Assembly (NCBI GenBank): GCA_016181765.1
Contig: JACOYR010000006.1
Coordinates: forward strand, 31,664-95,663
Direction of reading: 5' to 3'
Length of the DNA: 64,000 nt
From: Parcubacteria group bacterium
Lineage (GTDB): Bacteria > Patescibacteriota > Patescibacteriia > UBA2169
Shown here piece by piece: positions 12,271-49,097 of this stretch (position 1 is its first letter; the number at the start of each line of letters is the position of its first letter). Below the pieces are notes generated by a model. The model did no database searches and was not told the origin of the DNA. It saw nothing but the letters and a program-made list of their open reading frames with translations. The position numbers were made by a program, and so were the translations under genes.

Positions 12271-12304
12271 CGCATCCGCGCAATTCACTACATCACGCCA
12301 TGTG

Positions 12305-12313
12305 TGGTATACT
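12305..12313 (+). promoter_or_regulatory. TGGTATACT box 10 nt upstream of ATG 12324
   Basis: seen in sequence; member of recurrent pattern. Confidence 0.35.
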
Positions 12314-12323
12314 ATATGGTACC

Positions 12324-13802
12324 ATGGCAATTTTTGACGCGGTGCTAACGTTTGTCCTTGATGTGTACCGAGAGCTCCAGCTCGCGGGCGACCCTTTTTA
12401 CGCTGCTCTGATTCTTGTAGTGAACGGGCTCTGGATTCCGATTGTGTTCATCATGTTCGCGAACGCGAAAATCGCGTGGCAGGAATGGCGAATGGGCGTA
12501 TACCACGATGCCAGGCGGCGCTTCATCCTGCTCGCCATTGACGTGCCCCGCCTGAACGAGCAATCCCCCAAAGCCGTGGAAAACATATTCACGCAGCTGC
12601 ACGGCGCGCTCCCGGGCCACAACACCAAGTACCAAGAGTGGTGGCTCGGAAAAACTCCGGATTACTTCAGCGTTGAGCTGGTGTCCATTGAGGGCTATGT
12701 CCAGTTTTTGGTGTACACGCAGGAAGAGTACCGCGACATGGTGGAGAGCGCGTTCTACTCCCAGTACCCGGACGCCGAAATCACGCAGGTGGAAGACTAC
12801 GTGTACGGCCAAAACGGGGAGTTCCGAAACATTGTCTTCCCGAGCAAGGAGTACGATCTGCTCGGCTGTGAATTCGTGTCTACCCGGCCAAGTGTGTACC
12901 CTATCCGCTTGCACATAGACTTTGAACATTCACTCTCCCAGGAATTCAAAGACCCCATGGCCGCACTGCTTGAGAGCATGAACAAGATCGGCCCCGGGGA
13001 GCAATTCTGGTTCCAGTGGGTCATTACCCCGGAGTACGACGAAAACTGGCAGGTCGCATCAAACCGGGAGGCTATGAAAATCGCCGGAAAAAAAATAGAG
13101 GCTTCGGAAAATGTGGTTGATAAAGCAGTGGGCGCCCTCGTCAGCCTCATTGACGCAATCGGCACTGCGGCGTTCCCGTTCTACAACCAGAGCGAGGAAT
13201 CGCGAGAGCTGGATCGGGAACTGCCGAGCTTAATGCTCCACCTGACCCCGGCCGAGCAGCGCCGGATTGAAGCAATCCAGATGAAAGCGGACAAGCACGG
13301 CTTCTGGACAAAATTCAGGTACATCTACATCGCAAAAAAGGGCATTGCCTCCAAGGCGCGGGGTTTGGCGCCTATTACCGGCGCCATGAAGCAATTCAGC
13401 GCGCTCAATCTGAACACGCTCAAGCCGCACAGGTATACCAAAACATGGGGGTTATATTATATGATGGTGGAAAAGCGCGTGGCGCGCCGACAGAACAACC
13501 TCATCCGCGCGTACCAGGAGCGGGCCCGCAGCGCCGGCTCAAACGGCATTGTGCTGAACACCGAGGAGCTGGCAACGCTTTACCACTTCCCGACCGAGGT
13601 GGTAAAGGCTCCGCTCGTTTCCCGCACCCTGTCCAAGCGCGGGTCAGCTCCTGTCTCCTTGCCCGTGGAAGGGGGGCCCCGGACATTGCGCACGTCCCTG
13701 GACGCACAGCCCGCGCAAGGCGCGCATTCCCGCCCCGCCACAGTCCAGGAGGCGCCAGCATCGCACCACGGGCAAGCCCCGAGCAACCTGCCGTTTGTAT
13801 AA
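12324..13802 (+). CDS. hypothetical membrane-anchored protein (2-3 N-terminal TM helices plus about 400-aa soluble domain)
   Basis: Long ORF with consistent codon usage; no recognisable catalytic motif, no Walker A. Confidence 0.5.
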   Translation: MAIFDAVLTFVLDVYRELQLAGDPFYAALILVVNGLWIPIVFIMFANAKIAWQEWRMGVYHDARRRFILLAIDVPRLNEQSPKAVENIFTQLHGALPGHNTKYQEWWLGKTPDYFSVELVSIEGYVQFLVYTQEEYRDMVESAFYSQYPDAEITQVEDYVYGQNGEFRNIVFPSKEYDLLGCEFVSTRPSVYPIRLHIDFEHSLSQEFKDPMAALLESMNKIGPGEQFWFQWVITPEYDENWQVASNREAMKIAGKKIEASENVVDKAVGALVSLIDAIGTAAFPFYNQSEESRELDRELPSLMLHLTPAEQRRIEAIQMKADKHGFWTKFRYIYIAKKGIASKARGLAPITGAMKQFSALNLNTLKPHRYTKTWGLYYMMVEKRVARRQNNLIRAYQERARSAGSNGIVLNTEELATLYHFPTEVVKAPLVSRTLSKRGSAPVSLPVEGGPRTLRTSLDAQPAQGAHSRPATVQEAPASHHGQAPSNLPFV

Positions 13803-21097: not shown

Positions 21098-22456
21098 ATG
21101 GCAAAAATAAAAACAACCAAACTCCTCGCCTTTCTCCTGGTGCTCCCGCTCTTGGGCCTCGGGTGCAAAGGGTCGGGAACCGTATCCAAAGACGCGCTTG
21201 CGCCCGTAACGTTAAAGTACTGGCGCGTGTTTGATGAACCGAGCGACTTTACGGACGTGATCGCCGCGTTCAAACAGACCTACCCCCACATCAACGTAAG
21301 CGTGCGCAAACTGCGGATTGAGGAGTACGAAGATGCCATCATCCGCGCCCTGGCAGAGGGCAACGGGCCGGACATCATCTCTGTGCACGCGGCCCAGCTC
21401 AAGCAGTACCAGAATCTGCTCTCCCCTATGCCGCAAAGCGCCACCCTGCCCGCAACCATCATTGAGAACAACAACAAGAGGTCTGTAATGCTCCAAACCG
21501 TCAAACTGCCGAGCAGCCAAGACCTGCGGACCGCATTCATTGATACCGTCGCAACCGACGTCATGTTGGGCGGGCAAATCTACGGCCTGCCGCTCTCGGT
21601 TGACACTATGGTGCTCTACTACAACCGCCAGCTCTTAAACCAGGCAAACGTCCCCGCAGCTCCCCGCACATGGGAGGAGTTTAAGGAAGCGGTCAAGGTT
21701 CTCACCACCCAGGACCAGAACGGCAACATCATCCAGTCAGGCGCAGCCCTGGGAGGGGCGCGCAACATCAACCGCAGCCCGGACATCCTCGCGGCGCTTA
21801 TGATGCAGAACGGCACGGAGATGACCCGGTCGGGCCGCGTCGCCTTTAACGAAGTTCCGGCGAGCCTCTCAAGTTCGTCCGTGGCGCCCGGGCGGGACGC
21901 GCTGCGCTTTTACACGGACTTCGCGTCCCCAGCCAAGGAAGTGTACGCCTGGAACGAGAACCTGCCCGAGTCTTTGGACGCATTCGCAAACAGCCAGCTC
22001 GCGCTCTTCTTTGGGTATGCCTACCACTTGCCGCTCATCCGTTCCCTGGCTCCGGGCATTGACCTTGGCATCACCAAACTCCCCCAGATAGCAGCCGCCG
22101 GCCGCCAGGTGAACATTGCCAATTACTGGTTTGAGGGCGTCACCAAGCAGTCCGAACATAAGGACGAGGCATGGGGCTTTATCCAGTTCGCCGCATCAGA
22201 ACAAGGCGCGGCTCTGTTCCTCGCAAAATCCGGCAAGCCGACCGCCCTGCGCAGCCTCATTGCCAGCCAGCGGGCCAATCCGGAACTGGCCCCGTTTGCG
22301 GACCAGCTCTTAACGGCCCAAAACTGGTACCACGGCGGAAACGCCGCTGCCATGGAAGAAGCGCTCCGCACCGCCATTAGCCAGGTGGTCGCGGGGAGCC
22401 TGGAGCCTGACGCCGCCATTGACCAGGCCGCCCAAAATGTCGGCTTAACGTACTGA
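21098..22456 (+). CDS. extracellular solute-binding lipoprotein (ABC transporter SBP family 1, sugar-type); no permease or ATPase nearby
   Basis: Lipobox LLGLGC; 452 aa; stop overlaps start region of next gene. Confidence 0.7.
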   Translation: MAKIKTTKLLAFLLVLPLLGLGCKGSGTVSKDALAPVTLKYWRVFDEPSDFTDVIAAFKQTYPHINVSVRKLRIEEYEDAIIRALAEGNGPDIISVHAAQLKQYQNLLSPMPQSATLPATIIENNNKRSVMLQTVKLPSSQDLRTAFIDTVATDVMLGGQIYGLPLSVDTMVLYYNRQLLNQANVPAAPRTWEEFKEAVKVLTTQDQNGNIIQSGAALGGARNINRSPDILAALMMQNGTEMTRSGRVAFNEVPASLSSSSVAPGRDALRFYTDFASPAKEVYAWNENLPESLDAFANSQLALFFGYAYHLPLIRSLAPGIDLGITKLPQIAAAGRQVNIANYWFEGVTKQSEHKDEAWGFIQFAASEQGAALFLAKSGKPTALRSLIASQRANPELAPFADQLLTAQNWYHGGNAAAMEEALRTAISQVVAGSLEPDAAIDQAAQNVGLTY

Positions 22457-22457
22457 C

Positions 22458-23720
22458 ATGCCGTACCTCCTGCCCATCGTAGCGCTGCTCGCACTGCTGG
22501 TTCCCGAACCCGCAGCAGCAGACTCCCTGCTCCGAATCTGCACCGCAACCGGCAACTGCGGGGTGTGCGATGTGGTGGCAACCGCAGTCACGCTCGGCAA
22601 GTGGCTCATTACCGGATCAGCCGGACTAGCCTTGGTGGTGATTGTGTGGGCATCAGTCGGGCTCGCAACGAGCGCCGGAAACCCGGAAAAAATAGGGGAA
22701 GCCAAAAAACAGGTCGTGTGGTCCGTGCTCGGAGTGGGATTGGTGTTCGCGGCGTTCTATTTGGTGATGTGGATTGTCATTGCGTTCGCAAACCCCTCCA
22801 ACCAGTTCAAGTACGCAAAAAATCCGTCCGATGCCGCGGTTGCCGAAACCGGAGGCTTGGCCGGTTTTCTGGGCGGGACCGCATGGTGGAACCTGTGCAG
22901 CGAGGCTGATTTGCGCGCAAACGGCGACCGAGCAAGGTCCGCGGACAATATAACCGCGGACTGCAAGTACTGGGGAGACGGCACGCCCTGCAAGACAAAC
23001 CGCAAGAGCATCTGCTTGAGCGGAACGTGCACGCCAGTCGGAGACAGCAAAGTTCAGGCGAGCATAACCGCGCTCGGCGGATACCCCCTTCCAACAGACC
23101 CGTCCGCGTGCGACTATGTGGCCGCGGTTGACCGCGTGTTTGAAAACTACTCGTGCCAGCCGAATGCCGCATGCAATCCGGAAAAAATAGAAAAGGGGTT
23201 CTGCCCTCCCGGAGGCACAGTGTGCTGCGAGCCGTCCACCTTCACCCCGCGGGTGCGGCCAACCGCGGCCCCAGAGGTTTTGGTTCCAACGGCGCCCGGA
23301 GTACCCGGAGCTGGAGGTGATGAAATGGCAATCCGCACGACACTCGGAAATGCGGGCATAGAAGTCAATAAAGCCCCTTGTCCGGACATCCTTACCTCAA
23401 CCGACTGCACGTCAGTCGCCGGACTGTCGCAGAGCACGGTTAATAAACTGATTGAAGCCCACACCACATACAACGGGCGCATCTACATTACCGGAGGGAC
23501 CGAGCGAGGCCCCCATGCCCAAAACACCACGCACGGCAATCAGAACGTGGTTGATATCCGCAACAAGCAAGAGGCGCGAGATGCCCTGGATCAGATGGGG
23601 CTCGTGCGCATGACCTCGTTTTCAAACGGCTATGCGAGGGGCTCCAACTGGTACATCTGCGACACCAACGGCCAGGCTGTAAGCTGTGGTACTGCAAGCC
23701 ACTTACACGTAGAATTTTAA
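22458..23720 (+). CDS. pilin-like (TrbC/VirB2-type) N-terminal domain fused to Cys-rich linker and C-terminal M15/VanY-like zinc peptidase-like domain
   Basis: N-terminus ...VTLGKWLITGSAGLALVVIVWASVGLATSAGNPEKIGEAKKQVVWSVLGVGLVFAAFYLV resembles the downstream pilin paralogs; C-terminus has ...ITGGTERGPHAQNTTHGNQNVVDI and terminal ASHLHVEF (SxHxxGxAxD-like and HxH motifs). Confidence 0.5.
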   Translation: MPYLLPIVALLALLVPEPAAADSLLRICTATGNCGVCDVVATAVTLGKWLITGSAGLALVVIVWASVGLATSAGNPEKIGEAKKQVVWSVLGVGLVFAAFYLVMWIVIAFANPSNQFKYAKNPSDAAVAETGGLAGFLGGTAWWNLCSEADLRANGDRARSADNITADCKYWGDGTPCKTNRKSICLSGTCTPVGDSKVQASITALGGYPLPTDPSACDYVAAVDRVFENYSCQPNAACNPEKIEKGFCPPGGTVCCEPSTFTPRVRPTAAPEVLVPTAPGVPGAGGDEMAIRTTLGNAGIEVNKAPCPDILTSTDCTSVAGLSQSTVNKLIEAHTTYNGRIYITGGTERGPHAQNTTHGNQNVVDIRNKQEARDALDQMGLVRMTSFSNGYARGSNWYICDTNGQAVSCGTASHLHVEF

Positions 23721-23737
23721 CCAACCCTAGAGAGCCT

Positions 23738-24088
23738 ATGATCACAAAACTATTCTTCACCAGCCTCGCTATCCTGCTCCCCGCGGCACAAGCCCTGGCA
23801 CAGAACAGCTACGGCAGTGCCGATCTCAATCCGCTCGGAAGAATTGAGGGCCCGCAGGAGCTCTATGGCCGCTTTTTGCAATTTTTCCTCGGGTTCGTTG
23901 GGGTCGGCGCGCTCGGGTACTTCATCATCGGCGGCATTATACTCTTGATGTCCCAAGGGAACCCTGAAAAGGTAAAAATGGGCAAGGACACGCTGGTCTG
24001 GGCAATCATCGGCATGTTCGTGGCGTTCGCAAGCTACATCATCCTGCGGTTCGTGCTGGAGATCATCATCACCCCGACCGGCGCGTAG
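23738..24088 (+). CDS. pilin-like small membrane protein P1 (TrbC/VirB2-type architecture)
   Basis: Signal peptide, short variable region, then two-TM core ...GGIILLMSQGNPEKVKMGKDTLVWAIIGMFVAFASYII. Confidence 0.6.
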   Translation: MITKLFFTSLAILLPAAQALAQNSYGSADLNPLGRIEGPQELYGRFLQFFLGFVGVGALGYFIIGGIILLMSQGNPEKVKMGKDTLVWAIIGMFVAFASYIILRFVLEIIITPTGA

Positions 24089-24174
24089 TTATCAACAGAG
24101 TGATTTTGCAAAAAATGCCGCAGTGTTGTATAATTCATGCATCATAAACCAATTATTTATTAAACTTTGATACT

Positions 24175-24696
24175 ATGATTACGCGAACAACAAAACTGGC
24201 ATGGAAAATGATTTTGAGCGGGTTGTTTTCCGCAAGCTTCCTGGCGCTCGCGCTTGTTCCGGCTACAACGTCTGCCGCCGTAGGTGACGACTGCACGGAC
24301 ACCAAATCGTGCCCCACCGGGGGAGAAGTGTGCATCCGCAACGCTAATGACGGAACTCCCGGAGATGCAACTGATGCCTTTTCTTTCGTCTGCACCACCC
24401 CGCAGGCCACCCAGTATGGTTTAGGCGAGTTTACTGATGTCGGTCTCGGCCAGACCCAGGACCTCAAGGGCTCTATCGCGAACATCATCAACATCATCCT
24501 CGGATTCCTCGGGATTGTGGCGGTCATCATCATCCTGGCCGGCGGATTCAAGTGGATGACAGCCGGAGGCAACGAGGACAAGGTCGGCGAATCGCGGCAG
24601 ATGATCATCCAGGGCATCATCGGATTGGTGGTGGTGTTTGCGGCCTGGGCAATCGCGAGCTTCGTGGTTTCCAACCTCCAATCAGCAACCACCTAG
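24175..24696 (+). CDS. pilin-like protein P2 with Cys-rich N-terminal ectodomain
   Basis: Conserved core IINIILGFLGIVAVIIILAGGFKWMTAGGNEDKVGESRQMIIQGIIGLVVVFAAWAIASFVV. Confidence 0.65.
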   Translation: MITRTTKLAWKMILSGLFSASFLALALVPATTSAAVGDDCTDTKSCPTGGEVCIRNANDGTPGDATDAFSFVCTTPQATQYGLGEFTDVGLGQTQDLKGSIANIINIILGFLGIVAVIIILAGGFKWMTAGGNEDKVGESRQMIIQGIIGLVVVFAAWAIASFVVSNLQSATT

Positions 24697-24727
24697 CCGC
24701 CTCCCCCCTCTCTCCTGCCTATGCACA

Positions 24728-24763
24728 ACCCCCGCCAAATCAGCGGGGGTTGTTTGTTGCGTC
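24728..24763 (+). terminator. rho-independent terminator after P2
   Basis: caacccccgc-caaatca-gcgggggttg + tttgttg; followed by TGGTATACT box at 24777-24785 before P3. Confidence 0.5.
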
Positions 24764-24814
24764 CAAATCCTGTTTTTGGTATACTATACACACTGTTATT
24801 ATCCACAAAGGTCT

Positions 24815-25528
24815 ATGATGAAAACTATAAGCATTTTGGCGTCTGGGGCCGCATTTTCAATCCTGCTCCTCCTTGCGCCATCGGCAACAAATGCCGCTCC
24901 TGTTGATGAAGATGGGGTCTGTCAGCTTTTTCCGGTTACCGCAGACGAAGCATGCGGGCCGGGTTTGGTATGCGAACAAACGCCGACAAGCGCCGCGGGC
25001 CAAGGAGTGTGTTGTGCGCCGGGGTCAGACAACTGCCGTTTCGGGTTGGGAGAACAATCCACGTTCACAACCCTGGGTTTGGGCAAAAATGATGACCTTA
25101 AGGGGACTCTGGCGACCATTATCAATATAGCGCTCGGGTTCCTTGGCATTATTGCCGTGATTATCGTGATGTTCGGGGGGTTCAAGTGGATGACTGCGGC
25201 TGGAAACGAGGAGCAGGTGGGAGAGGCGCGGAAGCTGATCGTGGGGGGCGTGGTCGGACTGCTGGTGATATTCATGGCATGGGCAATCGCGAGCTTTGTG
25301 GTATTATTACGCCTCGCTATACAACCATATGCACCACACCATGACGCCACGCGCCGTTCAAGCCGCAAAATGCATGCTTGCCACGAGCATGCTGGTTCTG
25401 CTCGCTGTTGCAATCGCGGCACCTTCGTCAACTGGCGCGCAAGTTGCGGATCCCCGGGCTGCGGACCAGCAGTATGGCCTGGGAAGCGCCAGCAGCTTCA
25501 CAAATGTCGGCCTGGGCAAAGAGGATGA
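24815..25528 (+). CDS. pilin-like protein P3; conserved end is at about 25303 but no stop codon follows, so the ORF reads into the next gene in +1 frame
   Basis: Core ...IINIALGFLGIIAVIIVMFGGFKWMTAAGNEEQVGEARKLIVGGVVGLLVIFMAWAIASFVV then non-pilin-like tail; 3' 210 nt nearly identical to P4. Confidence 0.55.
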   Translation: MMKTISILASGAAFSILLLLAPSATNAAPVDEDGVCQLFPVTADEACGPGLVCEQTPTSAAGQGVCCAPGSDNCRFGLGEQSTFTTLGLGKNDDLKGTLATIINIALGFLGIIAVIIVMFGGFKWMTAAGNEEQVGEARKLIVGGVVGLLVIFMAWAIASFVVLLRLAIQPYAPHHDATRRSSRKMHACHEHAGSARCCNRGTFVNWRASCGSPGCGPAVWPGKRQQLHKCRPGQRG

Positions 25529-25757
25529 CCTTAAGGGGACTCTAGCGACCGTCATCAACATAGCGCTCGGGTTCCTTGGCATCATTGCCGTGATTATCGT
25601 GATGTTCGGAGGGTTCAAGTGGATGACTGCGGCAGGCAACGAGGAGCAGGTGGGAGAGGCGCGGAAGCTGATCGTGGGGGGCGTGGTCGGACTGCTGGTG
25701 ATATTCATGGCATGGGCAATCGCGAGCTTTGTGGTAAGCTCCTCGGCTCGGATATGA
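25341..25757 (+). CDS. pilin-like protein P4
   Basis: Signal peptide MTPRAVQAAKCMLATSMLVLLAVAIAAPSSTGA; same core as P3; stop codon TGA lies inside repeat R2. Confidence 0.65.
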   Translation: MTPRAVQAAKCMLATSMLVLLAVAIAAPSSTGAQVADPRAADQQYGLGSASSFTNVGLGKEDDLKGTLATVINIALGFLGIIAVIIVMFGGFKWMTAAGNEEQVGEARKLIVGGVVGLLVIFMAWAIASFVVSSSARI

Positions 25758-25804
25758 AAAAGAATACTTTTTCATATCACTCGCTCTACGTCGCTAATAA
25801 AACA
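25737..25804. repeat. hairpin repeat R2 (copy of R1) between P4 and P5
   Basis: agctcctcggctcgg-gatatgaaaaag-aata-ctttttcatatc-actcgctctacgtcgctaataaaaca; supplies P4 stop and ends 5 nt before P5 ATG. Confidence 0.7.
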
Positions 25805-25809
25805 ATGCT

Positions 25810-26208
25810 ATGCCGATAGTTAAATCGTTTTCCTTAAGAATCAACCTGATCGTCGCGGCGGGCATGCTCGCATTCGCGATTCTCGCGCCGGTTCCGGCGC
25901 TCGCCCAAACCGACCCGTTCGGCGTGGAAGATGCGGCCAGGATCAACGTGGGCGAAGAGCGGGACCTTAAATTTGCCATTGCGAACATCGTGAACGTAGT
26001 ACTCGGATTTTTGGGAATCCTTGCGGTCATCATCATCATGTATGCGGGATTCAAATGGATGACCGCGTCCGGAAACGAAGAGCAGGTGGGCGAAGCCCGA
26101 AAAATGCTCTTGCAGGCGGTCATCGGCTTAATCATCATCATGGGAGCCTGGGTCATTATAAACTTCGTCACCGGAGAATTCGGCAGAGCGGTCCAGCTTG
26201 AAAACTAA
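25810..26208 (+). CDS. pilin-like protein P5
   Basis: Core NIVNVVLGFLGILAVIIIMYAGFKWMTASGNEEQVGEARKMLLQAVIGLIIIMGAWVIINFV. Confidence 0.65.
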   Translation: MPIVKSFSLRINLIVAAGMLAFAILAPVPALAQTDPFGVEDAARINVGEERDLKFAIANIVNVVLGFLGILAVIIIMYAGFKWMTASGNEEQVGEARKMLLQAVIGLIIIMGAWVIINFVTGEFGRAVQLEN

Positions 26209-26236
26209 CCGGCCCCGGGCCGCTTACGCAACACGT

Positions 26237-26905
26237 ATGACCGCACGCCGCACTCTCATCGTAGCACTCCTCGTTTCCGGATTGGCGGGATTCGCGGCAA
26301 GCCCGCACCCGGCATTTGCCCAGCGCAGCGCCGCCGGGGAAAACGCGCTCAATTTTTTGGATGCGACCGCGGAAAAGGGCGGGCTCTCAAGCGGCATCAA
26401 AAACGCGGGATTCAGCAGTGAGGACGCGGTGCTCGGCATTGTGGGCAACATCATCAACGTCATCCTTGGATTCGTGGGAATCATCTTCTTTGTCCAGATG
26501 TTCTACGCGGGCTTCAGGTGGATGTCGTCCGGCGGCAACGAGGAGGTCGTAACCGAAGCCAGGCAGACCATCAAGAGCGCAGTCATCGGCATTGCGGTGG
26601 TGTTTGCCGCGTTCGTGGTTACGAACTTTACCTTGAATCAAATCGCAAGCATCACTGGGCCCACGCGGCCATCCGGGTTGCCCCCTGAAGATGAGAGCTA
26701 TGACCCAAGTTTAGATGCCCCGGGCGGAGACTTAAATTTCGGCGAACTACCTCCGCCGCTTGGGACATGCATCTATCCAAAAAGCGGCGAATGTGATGCC
26801 GGAAACACCGGGTGGACTGACCTGCAAAGTGATGTATCTGAAAATGCTTGCATGACTCTCGCTGCTTCGGCTTGTGGCGACCCTGATTTGCACGACTGGT
26901 ATTAA
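26237..26905 (+). CDS. pilin-like protein P6 with C-terminal Cys-rich tail (alternative start 26198)
   Basis: Signal peptide MTARRTLIVALLVSGLAGFAASPHPAFA; core GFVGIIFFVQMFYAGFRWMSSGGNEEVVTEARQTIKSAVIGIAVVFAAFVV; tail with 5 Cys. Confidence 0.6.
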   Translation: MTARRTLIVALLVSGLAGFAASPHPAFAQRSAAGENALNFLDATAEKGGLSSGIKNAGFSSEDAVLGIVGNIINVILGFVGIIFFVQMFYAGFRWMSSGGNEEVVTEARQTIKSAVIGIAVVFAAFVVTNFTLNQIASITGPTRPSGLPPEDESYDPSLDAPGGDLNFGELPPPLGTCIYPKSGECDAGNTGWTDLQSDVSENACMTLAASACGDPDLHDWY

Positions 26906-26911
26906 TATACT

Positions 26912-27340
26912 ATGAAATACGCCGCTCTAATATCACTATTCTTGGCAACCCTGTCTATAACTCTGTTTTCTTTTCAAGTCGTGGCTCATGCCCAAAATAC
27001 TGATACCAAACTCGCGAGCGCGGTTGGCGATGCCCGTGGAAAACTCAATGCCATTGGCTCAATCACAGGCTTGGGACGGGTTGACGTTTCAACTGACGCT
27101 GGTCTGTACGAAAAAATCGCGGCAGTCATCAATATCCTGCTCGGGTTTGCGGGCGTAATTGCGACCATCTATATAATTGTTGCGGGAATCCAGTGGATTA
27201 CGGCAAGCGGCAATGAGGAACAGGTTACCGAAGCGCGCGGAAACATAAGGAACGCGGTCATCGGCTTGGTGGTTATATTCCTCGCGTTTGTCATCACCAA
27301 TTTCGTCACCAAATCACTCATTGACGTAATCGGCGGCTGA
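26912..27340 (+). CDS. pilin-like protein P7
   Basis: Core INILLGFAGVIATIYIIVAGIQWITASGNEEQVTEARGNIRNAVIGLVVIFLAFVITNFV. Confidence 0.65.
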   Translation: MKYAALISLFLATLSITLFSFQVVAHAQNTDTKLASAVGDARGKLNAIGSITGLGRVDVSTDAGLYEKIAAVINILLGFAGVIATIYIIVAGIQWITASGNEEQVTEARGNIRNAVIGLVVIFLAFVITNFVTKSLIDVIGG

Positions 27341-27356
27341 CGCTAAAAACTTCCCT

Positions 27357-27989
27357 ATGAAAATCTTTCTCACAGCCATTGCCTTAACAGGCCTCCTCGC
27401 AGCCGCGGCTCCGGCGCACGCGGTATCCGGCGTCAACCAGCTCAAGAACAACCTCGGCATCATCGGAACCGAAACCGGGCTCGGCACCCAAGGGGACTCA
27501 AGTCTTCCGGAAAAAATCGCGGCAATTGTGAACATAGCGCTCGGGTTTGTAGCGCTCATCGGGGTGATCATGATCATCTACGCGGGCTTTAAGTGGATGA
27601 CAGCCGGCGGCAACGAGGAGCAAATAAAAGAAGCCAAAGGCCATATCCGCAATGCGGTCATCGGCATTGTCATTATTATGCTCGCGTTCGTAATTGTCAA
27701 TTTTACCGTGAACAAGCTCTCGGAAACCGTGGGTGTGGGCGAGGGCGGAGGAGGAGGGGGAAACGTCATCAGCGGACTTTGTGAATTTGATGTTGGCGGC
27801 GGGCTTATGTTCTGCGTACCTCGGTCAGAATCAGAGTGCCAAACCCTTGGGGGAACCTATAACGCGCAGTGCGAAAAGCAGACTTACTGCAGGTGCGCAA
27901 GCGGATGCGGGGCAAACAACTGCCTTATTATGACCGAAAATGCATGCGAAAGGAAGAGTGGAGCGCTTAGCGACGCGCCCTGTAATTGA
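27357..27989 (+). CDS. pilin-like protein P8 with Gly-rich linker and 10-Cys C-terminal module
   Basis: Core IVNIALGFVALIGVIMIIYAGFKWMTAGGNEEQIKEAKGHIRNAVIGIVIIMLAFVIVNF; GEGGGGGGN linker; CEFDVGGGLMFCVPRSESECQTLGGTYNAQCEKQTYCRCASGCGANNCLIMTENACE. Confidence 0.65.
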   Translation: MKIFLTAIALTGLLAAAAPAHAVSGVNQLKNNLGIIGTETGLGTQGDSSLPEKIAAIVNIALGFVALIGVIMIIYAGFKWMTAGGNEEQIKEAKGHIRNAVIGIVIIMLAFVIVNFTVNKLSETVGVGEGGGGGGNVISGLCEFDVGGGLMFCVPRSESECQTLGGTYNAQCEKQTYCRCASGCGANNCLIMTENACERKSGALSDAPCN

Positions 27990-28043: not shown

Positions 28044-28098
28044 TGACTTTTGTATACACATTGTGTATACTGACCGCATCATCAATCACATCAATCCC

Positions 28099-28431
28099 AT
28101 GATTAAAGACACCACCATCAACATCAGGACAAACGCCAAAATCAAAAAACGAGTAGCCCAAAAAGCGCGCGAGCGAGGCCTTACGCTTTCGGGACTCACG
28201 AATCTGTTCTTCCAGAATTTTGTGCAGAACGAACAAACGCTCATAGACAAGCTTGAGGAGCGCATGTTTGATAACGCCCTGCAGTCAGCGCCCATTAGAG
28301 AGAAGCTTACCCGATCGGATAGCGCGCTGGAAAAAAGACTCGCTGAAGACGCAAAAGATTTGGCGCGGATGCATTTTGATGATCTGCCGTCTGAAGACGA
28401 ATGGGTTGCCATACAGCCATCCATCAATTAA
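28099..28431 (+). CDS. ribbon-helix-helix antitoxin (RelB/DinJ/ParD-like)
   Basis: INIRTNAKIKKRVAQKARERGLTLSGLTNLFFQNFV RHH pattern; upstream of MazF-like gene; ORF-track start 28063 is actually the TGTATACT box. Confidence 0.5.
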   Translation: MIKDTTINIRTNAKIKKRVAQKARERGLTLSGLTNLFFQNFVQNEQTLIDKLEERMFDNALQSAPIREKLTRSDSALEKRLAEDAKDLARMHFDDLPSEDEWVAIQPSIN

Positions 28432-28434
28432 CCT

Positions 28435-28773
28435 ATGGATTTCCACCAAGGCGACATAGCGCTCGCAAACCTCAATCCGACCAGAGGGCACGAGCAAGCG
28501 GGCTTTAGGCCTGTGTTGATCATGCAAGCCAACATCCTCAACAAGCACCTAAGCACGGTCATCATAGCGCCAATCACCACAAATCTTGGTGCCCGAGGAA
28601 AGCTTACCACCTATCTCCTAGCTAAGGATGTATCAGGGCTTGACTATGATTCGGTCGTGCTCGTCCATCAAATACGCGCGCTTGACAAACAGCGATTAGA
28701 GAAAAAAATAACGAGCATATCTCACGATGAATTCCAAAAGATAAGAGAGAAACTGCTGTTTGTGTTCGGTTGA
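28435..28773 (+). CDS. MazF/PemK family endoribonuclease toxin
   Basis: GDIALANLNPTRGHEQAGFRPVLIMQANILNKHLSTVIIAPITTN...VVLVHQIRALDKQRL. Confidence 0.75.
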   Translation: MDFHQGDIALANLNPTRGHEQAGFRPVLIMQANILNKHLSTVIIAPITTNLGARGKLTTYLLAKDVSGLDYDSVVLVHQIRALDKQRLEKKITSISHDEFQKIREKLLFVFG

Positions 28774-36167: not shown

Positions 36168-37265
36168 TTACTGCTTGATGGGCATCACCAGGTACAAATA
36201 CCCCTCGTCATTGTTGGGCGTAAACACTCCCGGGCTTGCGGAGCCCGAAAGCTGGATTGCGACTTCGCTGGTATGGATGGCCGAAAGCCCGTCCAGCACG
36301 TACCGATAATCAAATACAATGTCAACGTCCCCGCCCTCAATCTTGGCGGGCAGCTCAACCGTGTTCTCGCCGAGCGCCGAGGCGGATGCGGACACCATGA
36401 TGCGGTCCGAAGAAAACTGGAAGCTGACGTGGTTTAAGCCCTGCCGGCAGAAGAGGGACGCGGACTTGATGGCCCGCACCAGCGGCTCCTTGTCAATCAC
36501 CACCTTTGTGGTGCTGGCCTTGGGAATGATTTCCCGGTAGTTCGGGAACGTGCCCGAAATCAGGCGGCTCAAGAGCTCCACGTCGCCAATAGAGAACAGC
36601 ACCTGGTTCTCGCTTGCGCTTAAGGTGAGCTCACCTTCCTCGCGGGAGAGGATGCGGCCGAGCTCGCTTGCGGCGCGCGCCGGCACAATAATGCTCTGGG
36701 TCTTCTGGGAAGGAGCCTTGAGCGCTACCGAGCGTTCCGCGAGGCGGTAGGAATCCGTGCCCACTAGAGTCACTTTGTTCCCCTCAAACGAGAGCAGGAC
36801 CCCCGAAAGCTCGGGCCGCGCATCGCTTGCCGAAACCGAGAACAGCACCTGCGAGAGTGCTCCGAAAAAATCGCTCCCGGGCATCACGGCAGTCGGCGTT
36901 CCGTCCAAAACAGGGATCACGGGAAACTCTTCCGCGGGGAGACCGTGAATCTTGGTGCGGGCGTTGCCGGAGCGGATTTCAAGGTGCTCCCCGGAAAGCT
37001 CAAGCGACACCGCAGAGCTCTCAAGCAATCCGACGTAGTCGTTGAACAGCCGCCCTGCCACCGTAAACGTCCCTTCCTGCTCAATTTTGCCGCGGATGGT
37101 TGCGGTGATGCCTATCTCAAGGTTTGTGGCCGAAAGCTTGAGCGCTCCCTCGCGGGCTTCAAGCAGCACGTTTGAGAGTATGGGCAAGGTCCCGCCTTTG
37201 GCCGCAATCGGCGCAACTTTGGCCAAAGCGTGCGCTAAGTTTTCCTGGGTGCATGAGAGCTTCAT
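36168..37265 (-). CDS. dnaN: DNA polymerase III beta sliding clamp
   Basis: MKLSCTQENLAHALAKVAPIAAKGGTLPILSNVLLEAREGALKLSATNLEIGI typical DnaN N-terminus; about 366 aa. Confidence 0.85.
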   Translation of the reverse strand: MKLSCTQENLAHALAKVAPIAAKGGTLPILSNVLLEAREGALKLSATNLEIGITATIRGKIEQEGTFTVAGRLFNDYVGLLESSAVSLELSGEHLEIRSGNARTKIHGLPAEEFPVIPVLDGTPTAVMPGSDFFGALSQVLFSVSASDARPELSGVLLSFEGNKVTLVGTDSYRLAERSVALKAPSQKTQSIIVPARAASELGRILSREEGELTLSASENQVLFSIGDVELLSRLISGTFPNYREIIPKASTTKVVIDKEPLVRAIKSASLFCRQGLNHVSFQFSSDRIMVSASASALGENTVELPAKIEGGDVDIVFDYRYVLDGLSAIHTSEVAIQLSGSASPGVFTPNNDEGYLYLVMPIKQ

Positions 37266-37340
37266 GCAGTAATAGTATCGCATCCATGCCAAAAACGGAA
37301 CGCACATGCGTTCCACAGGCTATCCCCAAGACGTTACCCG

Positions 37341-38315
37341 CTACCGGTACTTTGCGTGCCAGCCCATAATGATGCGCACGATTTTGCTGGTGTGCCGTTC
37401 GCGGCTGATGCGCAAAAACAACTCGGTCCAGGACGCATACTGGAACGTGGCCAGAATGCTCCCCATAACCACCAGGAGCAAAAATCCGACCGCCTGGCCG
37501 AGCGCCAAAAACACACTGCTCCCCACCCCCGCGGCAATGGTGTTGGCAATCATCAAAAATGGAGCAACGAGCGCGAGGATCAGAAAAATGGCGGCCCCGC
37601 CGACTATAATATTGACCGCAAACAGCGTCACCACGAGCTCTGCCGACACCAGCCAGTGGTCAAAAAACAGCGAGAGGGAGCGCACCACCGAGTTTCCAAG
37701 CGTGCGGCGTTCCAGCATGCGGTACGCGATTGCGTACTTGCTGATGATGGACGCTACCATGAGGAGCGGAATACCGAGCGCAAAACTGATGAGCGTGAGG
37801 GACTTAAGGGGGTCCACAAAATACAGAAGGAGCGCCGTGAGCGGCATGCCCACCACTCCGAGCACGAAAAACGCCCCGAGCCGGGTAACAACGAGAATCC
37901 CGAGAATCTGCCAGAATGATTTTCTGCCCGCAGCAAAGTGGGACCCGAGCGTGCCGCTTCCGGGATTTGCCGCGGCGCGGATGAGCGCGCCCTGCGCCGA
38001 AACCACGAGCCAAAACACGAGCACCACCACAAACGAAACTCCGCCCAGAACCGTGGCATTCTCTGCGGCCCGCGCCAGCAAGGAAGCGACCATATTGAGT
38101 ACCGTGCTCCCGCCGGTGCCAAACATGGCGAGGAGGCTCTCCCCGAAGAACACGTCTCCGGTTGAAAACCGGTTGAACTGGGTGATGACAAACTCAAATT
38201 CCCCGCCATTGCCCAAAAGCGCGGCCAAAAACCCGAGCGCCCACACGTGCGGATGCGTGCGCGTGGTGCGCCACGCGCGGCTCAAGGTTTTACGGTACAG
38301 AGAAGTTGGTTCCAT
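37341..38315 (-). CDS. hypothetical polytopic membrane protein
   Basis: ggagg SD before ATG at 38315; about 8 hydrophobic segments. Confidence 0.5.
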   Translation of the reverse strand: MEPTSLYRKTLSRAWRTTRTHPHVWALGFLAALLGNGGEFEFVITQFNRFSTGDVFFGESLLAMFGTGGSTVLNMVASLLARAAENATVLGGVSFVVVLVFWLVVSAQGALIRAAANPGSGTLGSHFAAGRKSFWQILGILVVTRLGAFFVLGVVGMPLTALLLYFVDPLKSLTLISFALGIPLLMVASIISKYAIAYRMLERRTLGNSVVRSLSLFFDHWLVSAELVVTLFAVNIIVGGAAIFLILALVAPFLMIANTIAAGVGSSVFLALGQAVGFLLLVVMGSILATFQYASWTELFLRISRERHTSKIVRIIMGWHAKYR

Positions 38316-38379
38316 AGGTAATTTTGTTTTCCTCCGCTCTATGCTTCCAGTATACCACACCCGAGCTGCGGGTGCACGC

Positions 38380-40203
38380 CTATGCCATAAGCCGCTCAAA
38401 CGCCTCGCGCTCCAGCGTCTCATGCTCAAGCAGGGCGGCCACCACGCGCTCAATGCGGCCCATGTGCTCAACAATAAGCTTTGCGGCGCGCTCATACGCC
38501 TCGCGCAAGAGCCCGGAGACTTCTTCGTCTATGAGCCCCGCATAGGCTTCGCCGTAGTCGCGCTGCTCTCCGAATTCTTTGCCTAAAAATATGAGCTCTT
38601 CTTTGTCCCCGAACGTCCGCGCGCCCAGTTTCTCGCTCATGCCGTACTCCGTAACCATGGCGCGGGCAAGCCCGGTCGCGCGCTTGAGGTCGCTCGCCGC
38701 TCCGGTTGTGACGTCCCCGAACACCTTTGCCTCAATGGCGTGCCCGGCAAGCAGCACCGAGAGGTCCGCGACAAACTCGCTGCGGGAGTGGAACCGCCGG
38801 TCCTCGCTCGGAACCTTCAGGGTGTACCCGCCGGCGCGGCCGCGCGACACAATGGAAACCTTGTGCACGGGATCAGCATCAGGCAGCACGTGCGCAACCA
38901 CGGCATGCCCCGCCTCGTGGTATGCGGTGATCTTCTTTTCTTTTTCCGAAAGCACGTGGGACCTGCGCTCCGGGCCGAGCAGCACCTTTTCTATGCTGAT
39001 AAGGATGTCGTCCTGCGCAAGCTGGGTCCGGTTCTTGCGCGCCGTGAGAATGGCGGCCTCGTTCAGGAGGTTGTACAAATCAGCGCCAGAGAAGCCGGGC
39101 GTGCGCTCGGCGACTGCCCGCAGGTTGGCGTCGCGGGCCAGGGGCTTGTCCTGGGCGTGCAGTTTCAAAATCGCCTCCCGCTCTTTGATGTCCGGCAAAT
39201 CAATGGTTACCCTGCGGTCAAACCTGCCTGGCCGCAAGAGTGCCGGATCCAGCACGTCCGGCCTGTTGGTCGCGGCCATCACAATCACATTGGTGCCGGT
39301 TTCAAAGCCGTCCATTTCAACCAGAATCTGGTTTAAGGTCTGCTCGCGCTCGTCGTGCGAACCGCCAAGCCCGGCACCGCGCTGGCGCCCCACAGCATCC
39401 ATCTCGTCTATGAACACGATTGCCGGGGCGCTCTTCTTTGCTTTGCGGAATAGGTCCCGCACGCGCGAGGCGCCCACTCCAACGAACATCTCAACGAATT
39501 CAGAACCAGACATGTGGAAGAACGGCACCCCGGCTTCTCCGGAAACCGCCTTGGCCAAGAGCGTCTTGCCCGTGCCCGGCGGCCCCACCAAGAGCACGCC
39601 CCGCGGAATGCGGGCCCCAAGCTTCGCAAACTTCTGGGGTTGGCGCAAAAATTCAACCACCTCTTCCAGCTCCTGTTTCGCTTCGGTTGAGCCGGCCACG
39701 TCAGCGAACGTGGTTTTCTTGCCCTGCTGTTTCTTGCGGGCCTCCTGATCCTCGCGCGCCGTGCTGCTCCCGAACATCATGGCGCGGTTGTTCGCGCCCT
39801 GGACCTGGCGCATCATGAACCAAATAAAAAACCCGATGAACAAGAGCGGGATCAAAAACGGGGCAAGCGCCGAAGCCCAGAGCGCTAAGCCGCCCGGCTC
39901 TTTGCTCTCAATGGAAACGCGCGCCATCTCCGCATCGGAGACGCCGTAGATGCCGAGGAGCCCGGCCAGCGTTTCTCCGGTCTCCTTGCGCGACTTCTTC
40001 TCGCTTCCATCCGCGTACGACACATACAGCGTGTCGCCCTCAACCAAAATTTTCTCAACCTCGCCGGCTTTGACGGACCCAACCACAGACGCGAATCCGG
40101 CTTCCTCGTCCGCGCTGAACGGGGACGAGAATGCGCTCAAAAATCCGGCAATCACCAGGAATGCGAGAAAAAAGATCACAAAGTTTTTGAGGAGTGAGCG
40201 CAT
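38380..40203 (-). CDS. ftsH: ATP-dependent zinc metalloprotease FtsH
   Basis: Walker [24 protein letters not shown], zinc motif HEAGHA, N-terminal TM pair. Confidence 0.9.
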
Positions 40204-47798: not shown

Positions 47799-48028
47799 AA
47801 CGCCTGGCGCTCGCGCTCATCAAGCTCTACCAAAAGACGCTCTCCCCGGACCACGGGCTCGTACAGGGATTTTTCCCGCATGGCGCGTGCAAGTACCGCC
47901 CCACGTGTTCAGAATACGCATATGACGCAATCCAATCATTTGGTATACTGAAGGGGTCTGCTGTGGGGGCAAAACGAATTGTGCGCTGCCACCCCTGGGC
48001 GCAAGGCGGCTATGATCCAGTACAATAA
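47795..48028 (+). CDS. yidD: membrane protein insertion efficiency factor YidD
   Basis: LIKLYQKTLSP...CKYRPTCSEYAYDAIQSFG...GAKRIVRCHPW. Confidence 0.8.
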   Translation: MKRLALALIKLYQKTLSPDHGLVQGFFPHGACKYRPTCSEYAYDAIQSFGILKGSAVGAKRIVRCHPWAQGGYDPVQ

Positions 48029-48031
48029 CCT

Positions 48032-48763: not shown

Positions 48764-48767
48764 CCAT

Positions 48768-49097
48768 ATGCTTATTGATATCAAAGGCATTTTAGGCCTT
48801 CCGGTTGAAACACAAAGTGGCACGCACCTCGGCAAAGTGGAGGCAGTGGTTGTTGAAATTGAAACACAGGCCCTCTACCAGTACCAAGTTAAGCCTGCGG
48901 GCATATCGCACTTATTTGATACGGCGGGACTCCTCATCCACCGCGACCAAGTGATCTCTATCACCAAGGAAAAAATGGTGGTGGAAGACAGCGTCAGAGC
49001 GGCCGTGCAAGCCAGCGAAGCGCTTGCAAAAAATAAGCCACAGCTTGGGGCTGTGGAAGCCATCACGCGACACAGAGCGGAGGGTAGCGTGCGCTAG
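48768..49097 (+). CDS. PRC-barrel-like small protein
   Basis: IKGILGLPVETQSGTHLGKVEAVVVEIET pattern. Confidence 0.4.
   Translation: MLIDIKGILGLPVETQSGTHLGKVEAVVVEIETQALYQYQVKPAGISHLFDTAGLLIHRDQVISITKEKMVVEDSVRAAVQASEALAKNKPQLGAVEAITRHRAEGSVR

What the first reader, a model, noticed from the sequence alone, without database searches (positions are those of the whole stretch)
21098..27989. Operon-like array: solute-binding lipoprotein + pilin-peptidase fusion + eight tandem TrbC/VirB2-type pilin-like paralogs with hypervariable Cys-rich ectodomains
Nine consecutive same-strand genes share a roughly 60-aa two-TM core (…LGFLGIxAVIIxMxGGFKWMTAxGNEExVxEARxxIxxxVIGLxVIFxAWAIASFVV) preceded by a signal peptide. 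The regions outside the core are completely different between paralogs and are rich in Cys, Gly and Asp (N-terminal in P2-P4, C-terminal in P6 and P8). P8 carries a Gly-linker and a 10-Cys module. The array is co-oriented with and overlaps an orphan ABC substrate-binding lipoprotein. One terminator and one TGGTATACT box split it into sub-operons. This architecture — conjugative-pilin-like fold used as a scaffold to display diversified small disulfide-rich domains — looks like a surface-display or adhesin diversification system rather than a single pilus subunit gene. No VirB4/VirB6/VirD4 machinery is in the window; pilT lies 19 kb away.
Basis: partly seen in the sequence, partly recalled or inferred. 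Interest (0 to 1): 0.75.

Follow-up and report, generated by a model that had tools for sequence, protein, structure and literature searches.

The report
Pilin gene array of an ultrasmall bacterium
This is a real array of nine conjugative-pilin-like genes of a kind already described in the ultrasmall, host-dependent Patescibacteria. Three details look undescribed: a sugar-binding-type lipoprotein always encoded just upstream, a lead pilin fused to a cell-wall-peptidase-like domain, and fast-evolving cysteine-rich outer parts.

Summary
Nine co-directional genes (22458-27989) each carry a signal peptide and a two-helix core, and all nine pass the Pfam gathering score for PF18895 T4SS_pilin (VirB2/TrbC-like).

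The window is chromosomal DNA of a Parcubacteria-type (class ABY1-like) Patescibacterium. Tandem arrays of 2-11 divergent VirB2-like pilins are already published for this phylum (Wang 2023; Quinonero-Coronel 2025). The core finding is therefore a known kind, not a new system.

Comparison with 22 related loci adds four points:
- The "orphan" substrate-binding lipoprotein is a conserved partner. It lies directly upstream of the first pilin in 21 of 22 loci.
- The cores are under strong purifying selection, while the exposed N- or C-terminal Cys-rich modules evolve much faster (P3: core 100%, extension about 45-48%).
- No VirB4, VirB6 or VirD4 lies in the window or within 10 kb of the related arrays examined.

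The most likely function is to supply subunits of a type IV secretion-dependent surface filament used for host contact. The substrate-binding-protein (SBP) link and the decorated pilins are the only parts that look undescribed. Interest is moderate.

The parts
21098..22456 (+). SBP_bac_1/SBP_bac_8 substrate-binding lipoprotein, the conserved first gene of the locus
   Evidence: Pfam E 1.7e-25 and 2.3e-24. The lipobox LGLGC has its Cys at residue 23, and the PROSITE-type lipobox pattern is found in 109 of 117 full-length homologues. A homologue lies directly upstream of the P1-like gene in 16 of 16 P1-anchored loci. A PF18895 pilin directly follows the SBP in 5 of 6 SBP-anchored loci.
22458..23720 (+). 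P1, the 'leader' pilin. It has a signal peptide, a C-x5-C-x2-C motif, a two-TM PF18895 core (SAGNPEKI loop), two Cys-rich modules (WW..C / CKYWGDGTPC; AC.Y..VD...C) and a C-terminal LAS/Hedgehog-DD-peptidase-like domain (residues about 286-420).
23738..24088 (+). P2, a short conserved pilin (116 aa, GNPEK loop, no Cys)
   Evidence: PF18895 at 44.4 bits. An orthologue of 112-130 aa follows P1 in all loci that reach that far, except L010 where the second gene is 170 aa. In L019 it is the first gene after the SBP.
24105..24134 (+). Promoter-like site TTGCAA-17-TATAAT upstream of P3
   Evidence: Consensus scan, 10 of 12 matches. This is a pattern match only.
24175..24696 (+). P3, a pilin with a 4-Cys N-terminal ectodomain (about 60 aa after the signal peptide)
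   Evidence: PF18895 at 38.4 bits. Against L004_p3 the core is 100% identical and the N-extension 45-48%.
24725..24762 (+). Intrinsic-terminator-like hairpin (11-bp stem) followed by UUGUUUGUU
   Evidence: Fold energy -23.5 kcal/mol, z = -3.99, 0 of 200 shuffles as stable.
24778..24786 (+). TGGTATACT extended -10-like box upstream of P4
   Evidence: Read directly from the sequence.
24815..25528 (+). P4, a pilin with a 6-Cys N-terminal ectodomain. The last 74 codons (from about 25304) run out of frame across the P5 start and are probably a lost-stop extension.
   Evidence: PF18895 at 36 bits. A block of about 215 nt is near-identical to P5 and ends sharply at 25303, and there is no stop where P5 has one.
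25329..25757 (+). P5, a pilin that is a recent duplicate or gene-conversion partner of P4 in the core
   Evidence: PF18895 at 36.6 bits. The repeat unit is 93% identical over 240 nt.
25810..26208 (+). P6, a short pilin (132 aa, no Cys)
   Evidence: PF18895 at 44.5 bits; TrbC at 29.5 bits, above its cut-off of 27.9.
26198..26905 (+). P7, a pilin with an 86-aa Pro/Asp-rich linker and a 4-Cys C-terminal module (ATG start at 26237 gives 222 aa)
   Evidence: PF18895 at 29.2 bits. Against orthologue L003_p5: core 87%, N-extension 60%, C-extension 33%.
26912..27340 (+). P8, a short pilin (142 aa, no Cys)
   Evidence: PF18895 at 46.2 bits.
27357..27989 (+). P9, a pilin with a Gly linker and a 10-Cys C-terminal module
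   Evidence: PF18895 at 51.5 bits. In homologue P0156, 7 of the 10 module Cys align as identical Cys at 52% overall identity.

Best explanation
The locus is the chromosomal pilin repertoire of a Patescibacteria (Parcubacteria/ABY1-type) type IV secretion-like apparatus whose ATPase and channel genes lie elsewhere in the genome.

Proposed steps:
1. Each product is exported by Sec and its signal peptide is cleaved.
2. It inserts as a helical hairpin with both ends outside the cell and the short GNEE/GNPE loop inside.
3. It is then, by inference, extracted and polymerised into a surface filament, as VirB2/TraA pilins are.
4. Because both termini of a VirB2-type subunit face the outside of the pilus, the N- and C-terminal Cys-rich modules would decorate the filament surface.

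Proposed roles of the parts:
- P1 and P2 are conserved specialised subunits. P1 carries conserved Cys-rich modules and, in this genome, a zinc DD-peptidase/Hedgehog-fold domain. That domain would bind or cut peptidoglycan stem peptides, of the host cell or of the cell's own wall, at the contact site. This would be analogous to VirB1/PrgK hydrolases.
- P3-P9 are paralogous 'GNEE' subunits. Their exposed parts diversify quickly, giving alternative or mixed surfaces for attachment to different hosts.
- The upstream lipoprotein of the sugar-type SBP family is a co-transcribed, probably translationally coupled partner. Its role (ligand or host-glycan binding at the filament base, or pilin handling) is unknown.

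Shown here: family membership, array structure, the conserved SBP-P1-P2-array order, purifying selection on cores against fast-evolving ectodomains, and fold-level peptidase similarity.
Inferred: polymerisation, T4SS dependence, surface exposure and host-contact function.
For: - All nine genes pass the PF18895 gathering score, and there are TrbC/VirB2 and Mycoplasma-ICE pilin hits.
- In 16 loci found through P1, the P1-like gene always heads a co-directional array of 5-12 pilin genes.
- The SBP is directly upstream in 16 of 16 of those loci. All six have a further six-gene array (five genes beyond the SBP-adjacent one in L019 and L023) within about 5 kb.
- Orthologue comparisons: the P3 core is 100, 96 and 91% identical against extension identities of 45-53%. 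Meanwhile 12-51% of identical-residue core codons carry synonymous changes. This means selection is acting, not recent transfer.
- Cys-rich C-terminal extensions of 50-180 aa with 8-21 Cys recur in arrays of the related ABY1-type loci.
- Most of the Cys framework of the P9 module (7 of 10 Cys) is retained at 52% identity.
- Literature: VirB2-like arrays of 2-11 genes occur in 383 CPR assemblies (PMC12102498). The array in Southlakia is essential for epibiotic growth (PMC10633639; PMC12857230). The assemblies that hold L010 and L013 are listed as VirB4-positive.
Against: - No VirB4, VirB6, VirB8 or VirD4 is in the 64 kb window or in the flanks sampled around five related arrays. Coupling to a T4SS therefore rests on family membership and on the literature.
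- Whether this genome has VirB4 could not be checked.
- No pilus made of PF18895 proteins has been observed in any Patescibacterium, according to the reviews read.
- Bulky ectodomains of 90-310 aa may be hard to fit into a tightly packed VirB2-type filament.
- Covalently fused proteins with 8-17 pilin hairpins exist in the family. These fit a membrane-embedded assembly at least as well as a filament.
- The peptidase assignment is fold-level only. Foldseek's best E-value is 0.35, there are no Pfam or PDB-sequence hits, and the residue two positions before the last His (H415) is Trp in 5 of 11 homologues. Catalysis is therefore uncertain.
Confidence: 0.6

Rival explanations
1. Membrane-anchored display. 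The hairpin is only a two-helix membrane anchor. The proteins stay in the cytoplasmic membrane, singly or as small oligomers, and present their Cys-rich modules, and the P1 peptidase-like domain, at the cell surface as adhesins or enzymes. No polymerisation and no T4SS are needed.
For: - No T4SS machinery lies near the array here or in five relatives sampled.
- The ectodomains on P1, P7 and P9 are large.
- Covalently fused poly-hairpin proteins exist in the family.
- The monoderm envelope makes a membrane-anchored ectodomain directly surface-exposed (established knowledge).
Against: - Four of the nine proteins (P2, P5, P6, P8) have no ectodomain to display beyond 30-40 residues, yet they are conserved. 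P2 is conserved in nearly every locus.
- The cores are far more conserved than a generic anchor needs: 91-100% identity at saturating synonymous divergence. The loop motif GNEEQV.EAR is near-invariant. This argues for specific protein-protein packing or recognition by a machine.
Confidence: 0.2
2. An SBP-centred membrane complex. The conserved unit is the lipoprotein SBP plus the hairpin proteins. Together they would form a ligand-sensing or uptake assembly, a ring or pore of hairpins that the SBP docks on, unrelated to secretion or pili.
For: - SBP-pilin adjacency is the most conserved feature, holding in 21 of 22 loci. It holds even where the rest of the array is several genes away.
- No ABC permease or ATPase partner lies near the SBP in the window.
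- The poly-hairpin fusions resemble fused ring subunits.
Against: - The family is homologous to VirB2/TrbC pilins and to ICE pilin-like proteins.
- In Saccharibacteria the array sits inside an essential T4SS cluster (PMC10633639).
- There is no precedent for SBPs docking on two-TM hairpins.
- The flanking galU-SBP synteny shows that some of the linkage is simply inherited gene order.
Confidence: 0.12
3. Conjugative DNA-transfer pilus of an integrated mobile element.
For: The PF18895, TrbC and NF045849 families come from conjugation systems.
Against: - The locus sits between housekeeping genes (galU upstream, yebC-ruvC downstream), and this order is conserved in distant relatives.
- There is no relaxase, coupling protein, integrase or composition shift here.
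- Relaxases are rare in CPR T4SS loci (PMC12102498).
Confidence: 0.03

Closest known systems
VirB2-like pilin arrays of Patescibacteria T4SS loci (Southlakia epibionticum ML1 SEML1_0006-0019 region; Nanosynbacter lyticus TM7x array; 441 arrays in 383 assemblies, Quinonero-Coronel et al. 2025)
   Same: The Pfam family (PF18895/PF04956) is the same. Both are tandem co-directional arrays of 2-11 signal-peptide-bearing two-TM proteins with low pairwise identity (about 23% mean column identity here, against a 25% average reported). Both are chromosomal, lack a relaxase, and have been proposed to serve host contact or host-range adaptation.
   Different: Here the array is not next to virB4/virB6, whereas it is in Southlakia. 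It is headed by a conserved SBP lipoprotein and a long 'leader' pilin. Several members carry Cys-rich ectodomains of 60-310 aa, one with a peptidase-like fold. None of these three features is mentioned in the papers read.
VirB2/TrbC/TraA conjugative pilins of Gram-negative T4SS (Agrobacterium VirB2, F TraA)
   Same: A signal peptide is followed by a two-helix hairpin with a short polar loop. Sub-threshold to threshold PF04956 matches are found. In known pilus structures both termini face outward (established knowledge).
   Different: Canonical pilins are about 70-120 aa without added domains, occur as a single gene per system, and are encoded inside the T4SS operon. Here there are nine paralogues, some with large disulfide-type modules, in a monoderm organism.
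Multi-copy VirB2 paralogues of Anaplasma/Bartonella T4SS
   Same: Tandem amplification and divergence of the exposed parts of VirB2 paralogues, interpreted as surface variation (cited in PMC12102498).
   Different: Those paralogues are in intracellular pathogens of animals, lack fused domains, and are not linked to an SBP.
LAS / Hedgehog-DD-peptidase fold zinc peptidases (MEROPS M15: VanX, VanY, Streptomyces Zn DD-peptidase, phage L-alanoyl-D-glutamate peptidases; M74 MepA; ShhN)
   Different: There is no sequence-profile match to any M15/M74 Pfam model or PDB sequence. 'TGGTE' replaces the usual SxHxxGxAxD context. The candidate catalytic residue before the last His is not conserved. The domain has 4-6 extra Cys and is fused to a pilin core.
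Mycoplasma ICE Mbov_0395/MMCAP2_0565 pilin-like conjugal transfer protein (NCBIfam NF045849)
   Same: This is the best NCBIfam match for all nine genes. P5, P6, P8 and P9 reach or pass the 40-bit cut-off. It is a pilin-like protein of a monoderm conjugation system.
   Different: It is a single-copy 80-aa protein inside an ICE, with no array, no ectodomains and no SBP.

Membership tests
Pfam PF18895 T4SS_pilin | Score at or above the curated gathering threshold (26.6 bits) | tested here: met
   All nine genes score 29.2-51.5 bits. The precomputed Pfam annotation of identical proteins on other contigs agrees.
Pfam PF04956 TrbC/VirB2 pilin | Score at or above the gathering threshold (27.9 bits) | tested here: inconclusive
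   Only P6 passes (29.5 bits). P3 scores 24.9. P1, P2, P4, P5 and P8 score 15-20. P7 and P9 give no hit. This fits a sister family rather than a member.
VirB2-type pilin (functional class) | Cleavable signal peptide followed by two hydrophobic helices separated by a short polar loop | tested here: met
   The hydropathy scan finds an N-terminal hydrophobic leader plus two TM-like segments in all nine. The AF2 model of P1 gives helices 36-71 and 76-110. No dedicated signal-peptide predictor was run.
VirB2-type pilin (functional class) | Encoded with, and dependent on, a VirB4-type T4SS (VirB4, VirB6, VirB3/8) | tested here: not met
   None is in the 64 kb window or among the large flanking ORFs sampled around five related arrays. 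Presence elsewhere in this genome is not testable here. Two related assemblies are listed as VirB4-positive.
VirB2-type pilin (functional class) | Polymerises into an extracellular filament | not testable with these tools
   This needs microscopy or biochemistry. The reviews read say a pilus is so far only hypothesised for Patescibacteria (PMC12857230).
Patescibacteria VirB2-like pilin array (Quinonero-Coronel 2025 definition) | Two or more PF18895/PF04956-positive genes in tandem, or separated by at most one non-pilin gene, in a CPR genome | tested here: met
   There are nine consecutive hits. The closest homologues are named Parcubacteria or Patescibacteria group bacterium.
LAS / MEROPS M15-type zinc peptidase (P1 C-terminal domain) | Hedgehog/DD-peptidase fold | tested here: met
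LAS / MEROPS M15-type zinc peptidase (P1 C-terminal domain) | Zn-binding triad H-x(3-6)-D ... H | tested here: met
   H359-x6-D366 and H417 are conserved in 10/11, 11/11 and 11/11 homologues. Their spatial proximity in the model was not measured.
LAS / MEROPS M15-type zinc peptidase (P1 C-terminal domain) | Sequence-profile membership (Pfam Peptidase_M15 family models) and a conserved catalytic base | tested here: not met
   No Pfam hit below E 0.09 and no PDB-sequence hit below E 1. H415 is replaced by Trp in 5 of 11 homologues. The domain may be a binding domain rather than an enzyme.
ABC-transporter substrate-binding protein (SBP_bac_1, sugar type) | Pfam SBP_bac_1/SBP_bac_8 domain plus lipoprotein signal | tested here: met
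   E 1.7e-25 and 2.3e-24. The lipobox is conserved in 109 of 117 homologues.
ABC-transporter substrate-binding protein (SBP_bac_1, sugar type) | Encoded with cognate permease and ATPase genes | tested here: not met
   No ABC permease or ATPase is adjacent in the window or in any of the loci whose neighbours were annotated.

The most novel reading that the evidence does not exclude
In a large branch of Patescibacteria (ABY1/Parcubacteria-type), the VirB2-like pilin array is part of a conserved four-part module that has not been described. The parts are a sugar-type SBP lipoprotein, a Cys-motif 'leader' pilin (sometimes fused to a zinc DD-peptidase/Hedgehog-fold domain), a short conserved pilin, and a variable set of paralogues whose exposed disulfide-type modules evolve fast. 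The SBP and the leader pilin would form a host-glycan- or peptidoglycan-recognising tip or base complex of the filament. This would make the locus a host-recognition and cell-wall-breaching device, with the pilin hairpin used as a modular carrier for ectodomains.
Probability: 0.3. Interest if true: 0.65.

Novelty: new variant of a known kind. Interest (0 to 1): 0.45.

Why it matters
Patescibacteria are a large, mostly uncultured part of bacterial diversity and live attached to host cells. In the one genetically tractable species, the T4SS and its pilin array are essential for that lifestyle, yet nobody knows what the pilins build or bind.

This locus adds concrete, testable handles:
- A lipoprotein of the sugar-binding SBP family is genetically welded to the first pilin across deep divergence.
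- A leader pilin carries a peptidoglycan-peptidase-like domain.
- The cores are constrained while the exposed modules diversify.

If the SBP and the ectodomains prove to be the host-recognition parts, they would be natural markers for predicting host range from metagenomes. They would also be targets for binding assays. If not, the locus is simply one more example of a published array type.

Tried and rejected
- A profile search of that domain against PDB sequences, and Pfam at E up to 10, found nothing meaningful. Foldseek against the PDB was not significant. The afdb50 library was unavailable.
- T4SS machinery was sought in the window and in the flanks of relatives. Only housekeeping and envelope genes were found.
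- An exact-match contig look-up for P1 gave only 4-5 kb contigs that break in the P4/P5 repeat.
- A mobile-element origin was considered and rejected because of conserved housekeeping synteny.
- I considered whether P4's 74-residue Cys/Arg/His-rich tail is a real module. I rejected this as the likeliest reading. The tail is the out-of-frame translation of the P5 start region, which begins exactly where the P4/P5 repeat ends, and it has no counterpart in L009_p4.
- Literature searches for any mention of SBPs or cysteine-rich domains with CPR pilins returned nothing.

Full report
**1. What is in the sequence**

Ten co-directional genes lie between 21098 and 27989 on the + strand. The first (21098-22456, 452 aa) is an SBP_bac_1/SBP_bac_8 substrate-binding protein (E 1.7e-25 and 2.3e-24). 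It has a lipoprotein signal, LGLGC with Cys23, and 109 of 117 full-length homologues match the PROSITE-type lipobox pattern.

The next nine genes (P1-P9; coordinates under 'parts') all exceed the Pfam gathering score for PF18895 T4SS_pilin, at 29.2-51.5 bits. Most also give weaker TrbC/VirB2 hits, and P6 passes that threshold. All nine hit NCBIfam NF045849, the pilin-like conjugal transfer protein of Mycoplasma ICEs. A core HMM built from the nine finds exactly these nine genes in the window.

Each protein has an N-terminal hydrophobic leader. Two TM-like helices flank a short polar loop, which is GNEEQV.EAR in P3-P9 and GNPEK in P1 and P2. With a cleaved signal peptide and two membrane passes, both the N- and the C-terminal extensions end up outside the cell. 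That is where Cys-rich modules are expected.

The extensions are real:
- P3 and P4 carry 4 and 6 Cys N-terminal to the core.
- P7 carries a Pro/Asp-rich linker and 4 Cys C-terminal to the core.
- P9 carries a Gly linker and 10 Cys C-terminal to the core.
- P1 carries 311 residues with 15 Cys after the core.

TGGTATACT is at 24778. A strong hairpin followed by UUGUUUGUU lies just upstream of it, at -23.5 kcal/mol and z = -4.0. A TTGCAA-17-TATAAT site precedes P3.

**2. Where the window comes from**

The neighbours are housekeeping genes. On the upstream side they are purD, purN, murB and galU. On the downstream side they are a MazEF-like pair, yebC, ruvC, tyrS, a class A PBP, dnaN, ftsH, rpsA, gyrA and yidC.

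The closest homologues are labelled Parcubacteria or Patescibacteria group bacterium. The SBP itself is on record from an NCBI Parcubacteria MAG contig of 106 kb. Two related assemblies are classed ABY1 in GTDB.

No VirB4, VirB6, VirB8, VirD4 or relaxase is in the 64 kb window. The only secretion ATPase is a PilT-like T2SSE gene at 1802-2875, which belongs to type IV pili, not to a T4SS.

**3. What is already known**

Tandem arrays of VirB2-like pilins in Patescibacteria are published:
- Wang et al. [quoted passage not shown] They are essential for epibiotic growth.
- Quinonero-Coronel et al. 2025 (PMC12102498) used PF18895 and PF04956 on 3,035 CPR genomes. They reported 441 arrays of 2-11 pilin genes in 383 assemblies, with an average identity of 25% within arrays. 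The pilin gene was near virB4 in 1,135 of 1,948 assemblies. They suggested that paralogue diversity helps adaptation to different hosts.
- A 2025 T4SS review calls these systems unique among monoderms for their potential to make conjugative-type pili.

The 'diversification' reading has also been proposed.

**4. What comparison with relatives adds**

*(a) The P1 family.* A scan of one genome per species with the P1 family returned 16 loci, all in Parcubacteria, Komeilibacteria or Patescibacteria MAGs.
- In every locus the P1-like gene is the first of a co-directional array. Where the contig is long enough, the array has 5-12 pilin genes.
- In every locus that reaches that far except L010, the second gene is a short P2-like pilin of 112-130 aa.

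*(b) The SBP.* An SBP homologue (39-77% identity) lies immediately upstream of P1 in all 16 loci. The two genes abut or overlap by 4 nt. galU precedes the SBP in 13 of the loci.

The converse test used six SBP homologues (46-59% identity), chosen only for long contigs.
- Five are directly followed by a PF18895 gene.
- In the sixth, a six-gene array lies 4 kb away on the other strand.
- In three of them the SBP-pilin pair is kept even though the main array sits 4-5 kb further on.

The SBP-adjacent pilins share P1's Cys motif before the first helix and its S(A/G)G.(P/S)E(K/R) loop. The SBP is therefore not an incidental 'orphan'. It is the most constant companion of the array. None of the papers read mentions it.

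*(c) Modular structure of P1.* P1 is built from parts: core, then a WW..C / CKYWGDGTPC module, then a second Cys module, then a C-terminal domain. The last two parts are missing in many orthologues.

*(d) Ectodomains in related arrays.* Cys-rich C-terminal extensions of 50-180 residues with 8-21 Cys recur on some members of the arrays in the P1-anchored loci. The SBP-anchored arrays from other lineages have only short pilins. The decorated pilins are therefore a lineage-specific elaboration.

*(e) Rates of evolution.* Orthologue comparisons separate core from ectodomain.
- The P3 core is 100, 96 and 91% identical to L004, L003 and L005. Its N-terminal extension is only 45-53% identical.
- For P7 against L003_p5 the values are core 87%, N-extension 60% and C-extension 33%.
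- Among core codons with identical residues, 12-51% differ synonymously. The core identity therefore reflects purifying selection, not recent transfer.
- The neighbours galU and SBP are 92% and 77% identical to L004.

The ectodomains are not random. In P0156, 7 of the 10 Cys of the P9 module align as identical Cys at 52% overall identity.

*(f) Family size.* The family is very large: 75,376 clusters at 50% identity score E <= 1e-3 against the profile.

**5. The 'peptidase' of P1**

The motif H359-x6-D366 ... H417 is conserved in 10, 11 and 11 of 11 homologues, and E349 is invariant.

Against this:
- Foldseek finds nothing significant. Its best hit, at E 0.35, is the same Zn DD-peptidase.
- Profile searches find nothing.
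- H415 is Trp in five homologues.

I conclude that the domain has the zinc DD-peptidase fold and probably binds metal. Whether it cleaves or only binds peptidoglycan peptides is open.

**6. Mechanism and rivals**

*Preferred reading (confidence 0.6).* These are the subunits of the Patescibacteria T4SS-dependent filament.
- P1 and P2 are conserved specialised subunits, and P3-P9 are diversifying paralogues.
- The ectodomains lie on the filament surface, because both termini of VirB2-type pilins point outward in known pili (established knowledge).
- The P1 domain acts on peptidoglycan at the contact site.
- The SBP lipoprotein is a coupled partner of unknown role.

Family membership, architecture, synteny and selection pattern are shown. 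Polymerisation, T4SS dependence and function are inferred.

*Main rival (0.2).* The hairpins stay in the membrane as anchors for displayed domains. This rival gains some support from the lack of nearby machinery and from a finding made in passing. Many family members are single polypeptides with 2-17 tandem hairpins, for example P0144 with eight. It is weakened by the extreme conservation of cores and loops, and by the conserved domain-less members P2, P6 and P8.

*Third reading (0.12).* The SBP is the centre of a hairpin-based membrane complex.

*Conjugative mobile element (0.03).* This is very unlikely, given the conserved housekeeping synteny.

**7. Verdict**

What remains of interest is the conserved SBP-leader pilin-short pilin-array module, and the use of the pilin hairpin as a carrier for fast-evolving Cys-rich domains and a peptidase-fold domain in this lineage. 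I found no description of either. I rate it a new variant of a known kind, with interest 0.45.

Noticed in passing
window 25064-25303 and 25497-25736; P4 tail 25304-25528: P4 and P5 share a near-identical block of about 215 nt that ends abruptly. This points to recent duplication or gene conversion inside the array. P4 has no stop codon where P5 has one. It reads 74 codons further, out of frame across the P5 start. Independent short-read contigs of the same strain break inside this repeat.
   Followed up: partly
P0144 (820 aa), P0178 (1775 aa), P0164 (1147 aa) and many others from the representative search: Many proteins of this family are single polypeptides with 2-17 tandem pilin hairpins. 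P0144 has eight, with no internal signal peptides. Covalently fused 'poly-pilins' are hard to reconcile with a simple one-subunit filament. They hint at ring- or sheet-like membrane assemblies.
   Followed up: partly
L020 10001-11814, L021 10001-11843, L022 2912-4694: In other Patescibacteria lineages the SBP-leader pilin pair is followed by a conserved trio: an HTH_25/Glucodextran_B protein, a methyltransferase and a 127-aa unknown. The six-gene pilin array lies 4-5 kb further on. The SBP-pilin pair therefore behaves as a unit separate from the array.
   Followed up: no
window about 48000-52000: The cumulative GC skew reaches its minimum here, GC falls to 0.42, three tRNA genes cluster at 50452-50923, and yidC is at 48032-48763. 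This is probably the replication origin region, 23-29 kb from the array. No dnaA was found next to dnaN (36168-37316, minus strand).
   Followed up: partly
window 28063-28773: A RelB-like antitoxin and a MazF/PemK toxin pair lies directly downstream of the array. It sits between the array and yebC-ruvC, and is absent at that position in relatives L005, L006 and L019.
   Followed up: no
window 37306-38586 (+) / 37341-38495 (-), 12300-13802, 55418-57085: Long ORFs of 384-555 aa have no Pfam match. One of them lies between dnaN and ftsH, where two overlapping ORFs on opposite strands are both open.
   Followed up: no
window 1802-3828: A PilT-like T2SSE ATPase is followed by a cNMP-binding/GAF protein. 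This is type IV pilus-related and not part of the T4SS-type pilin array.
   Followed up: no
L014 16543-19284: A 913-aa protein with NlpC/P60, C92 amidase-like and lamin-tail domains lies 4 kb downstream of a related array. It is another cell-wall hydrolase candidate near such loci.
   Followed up: no
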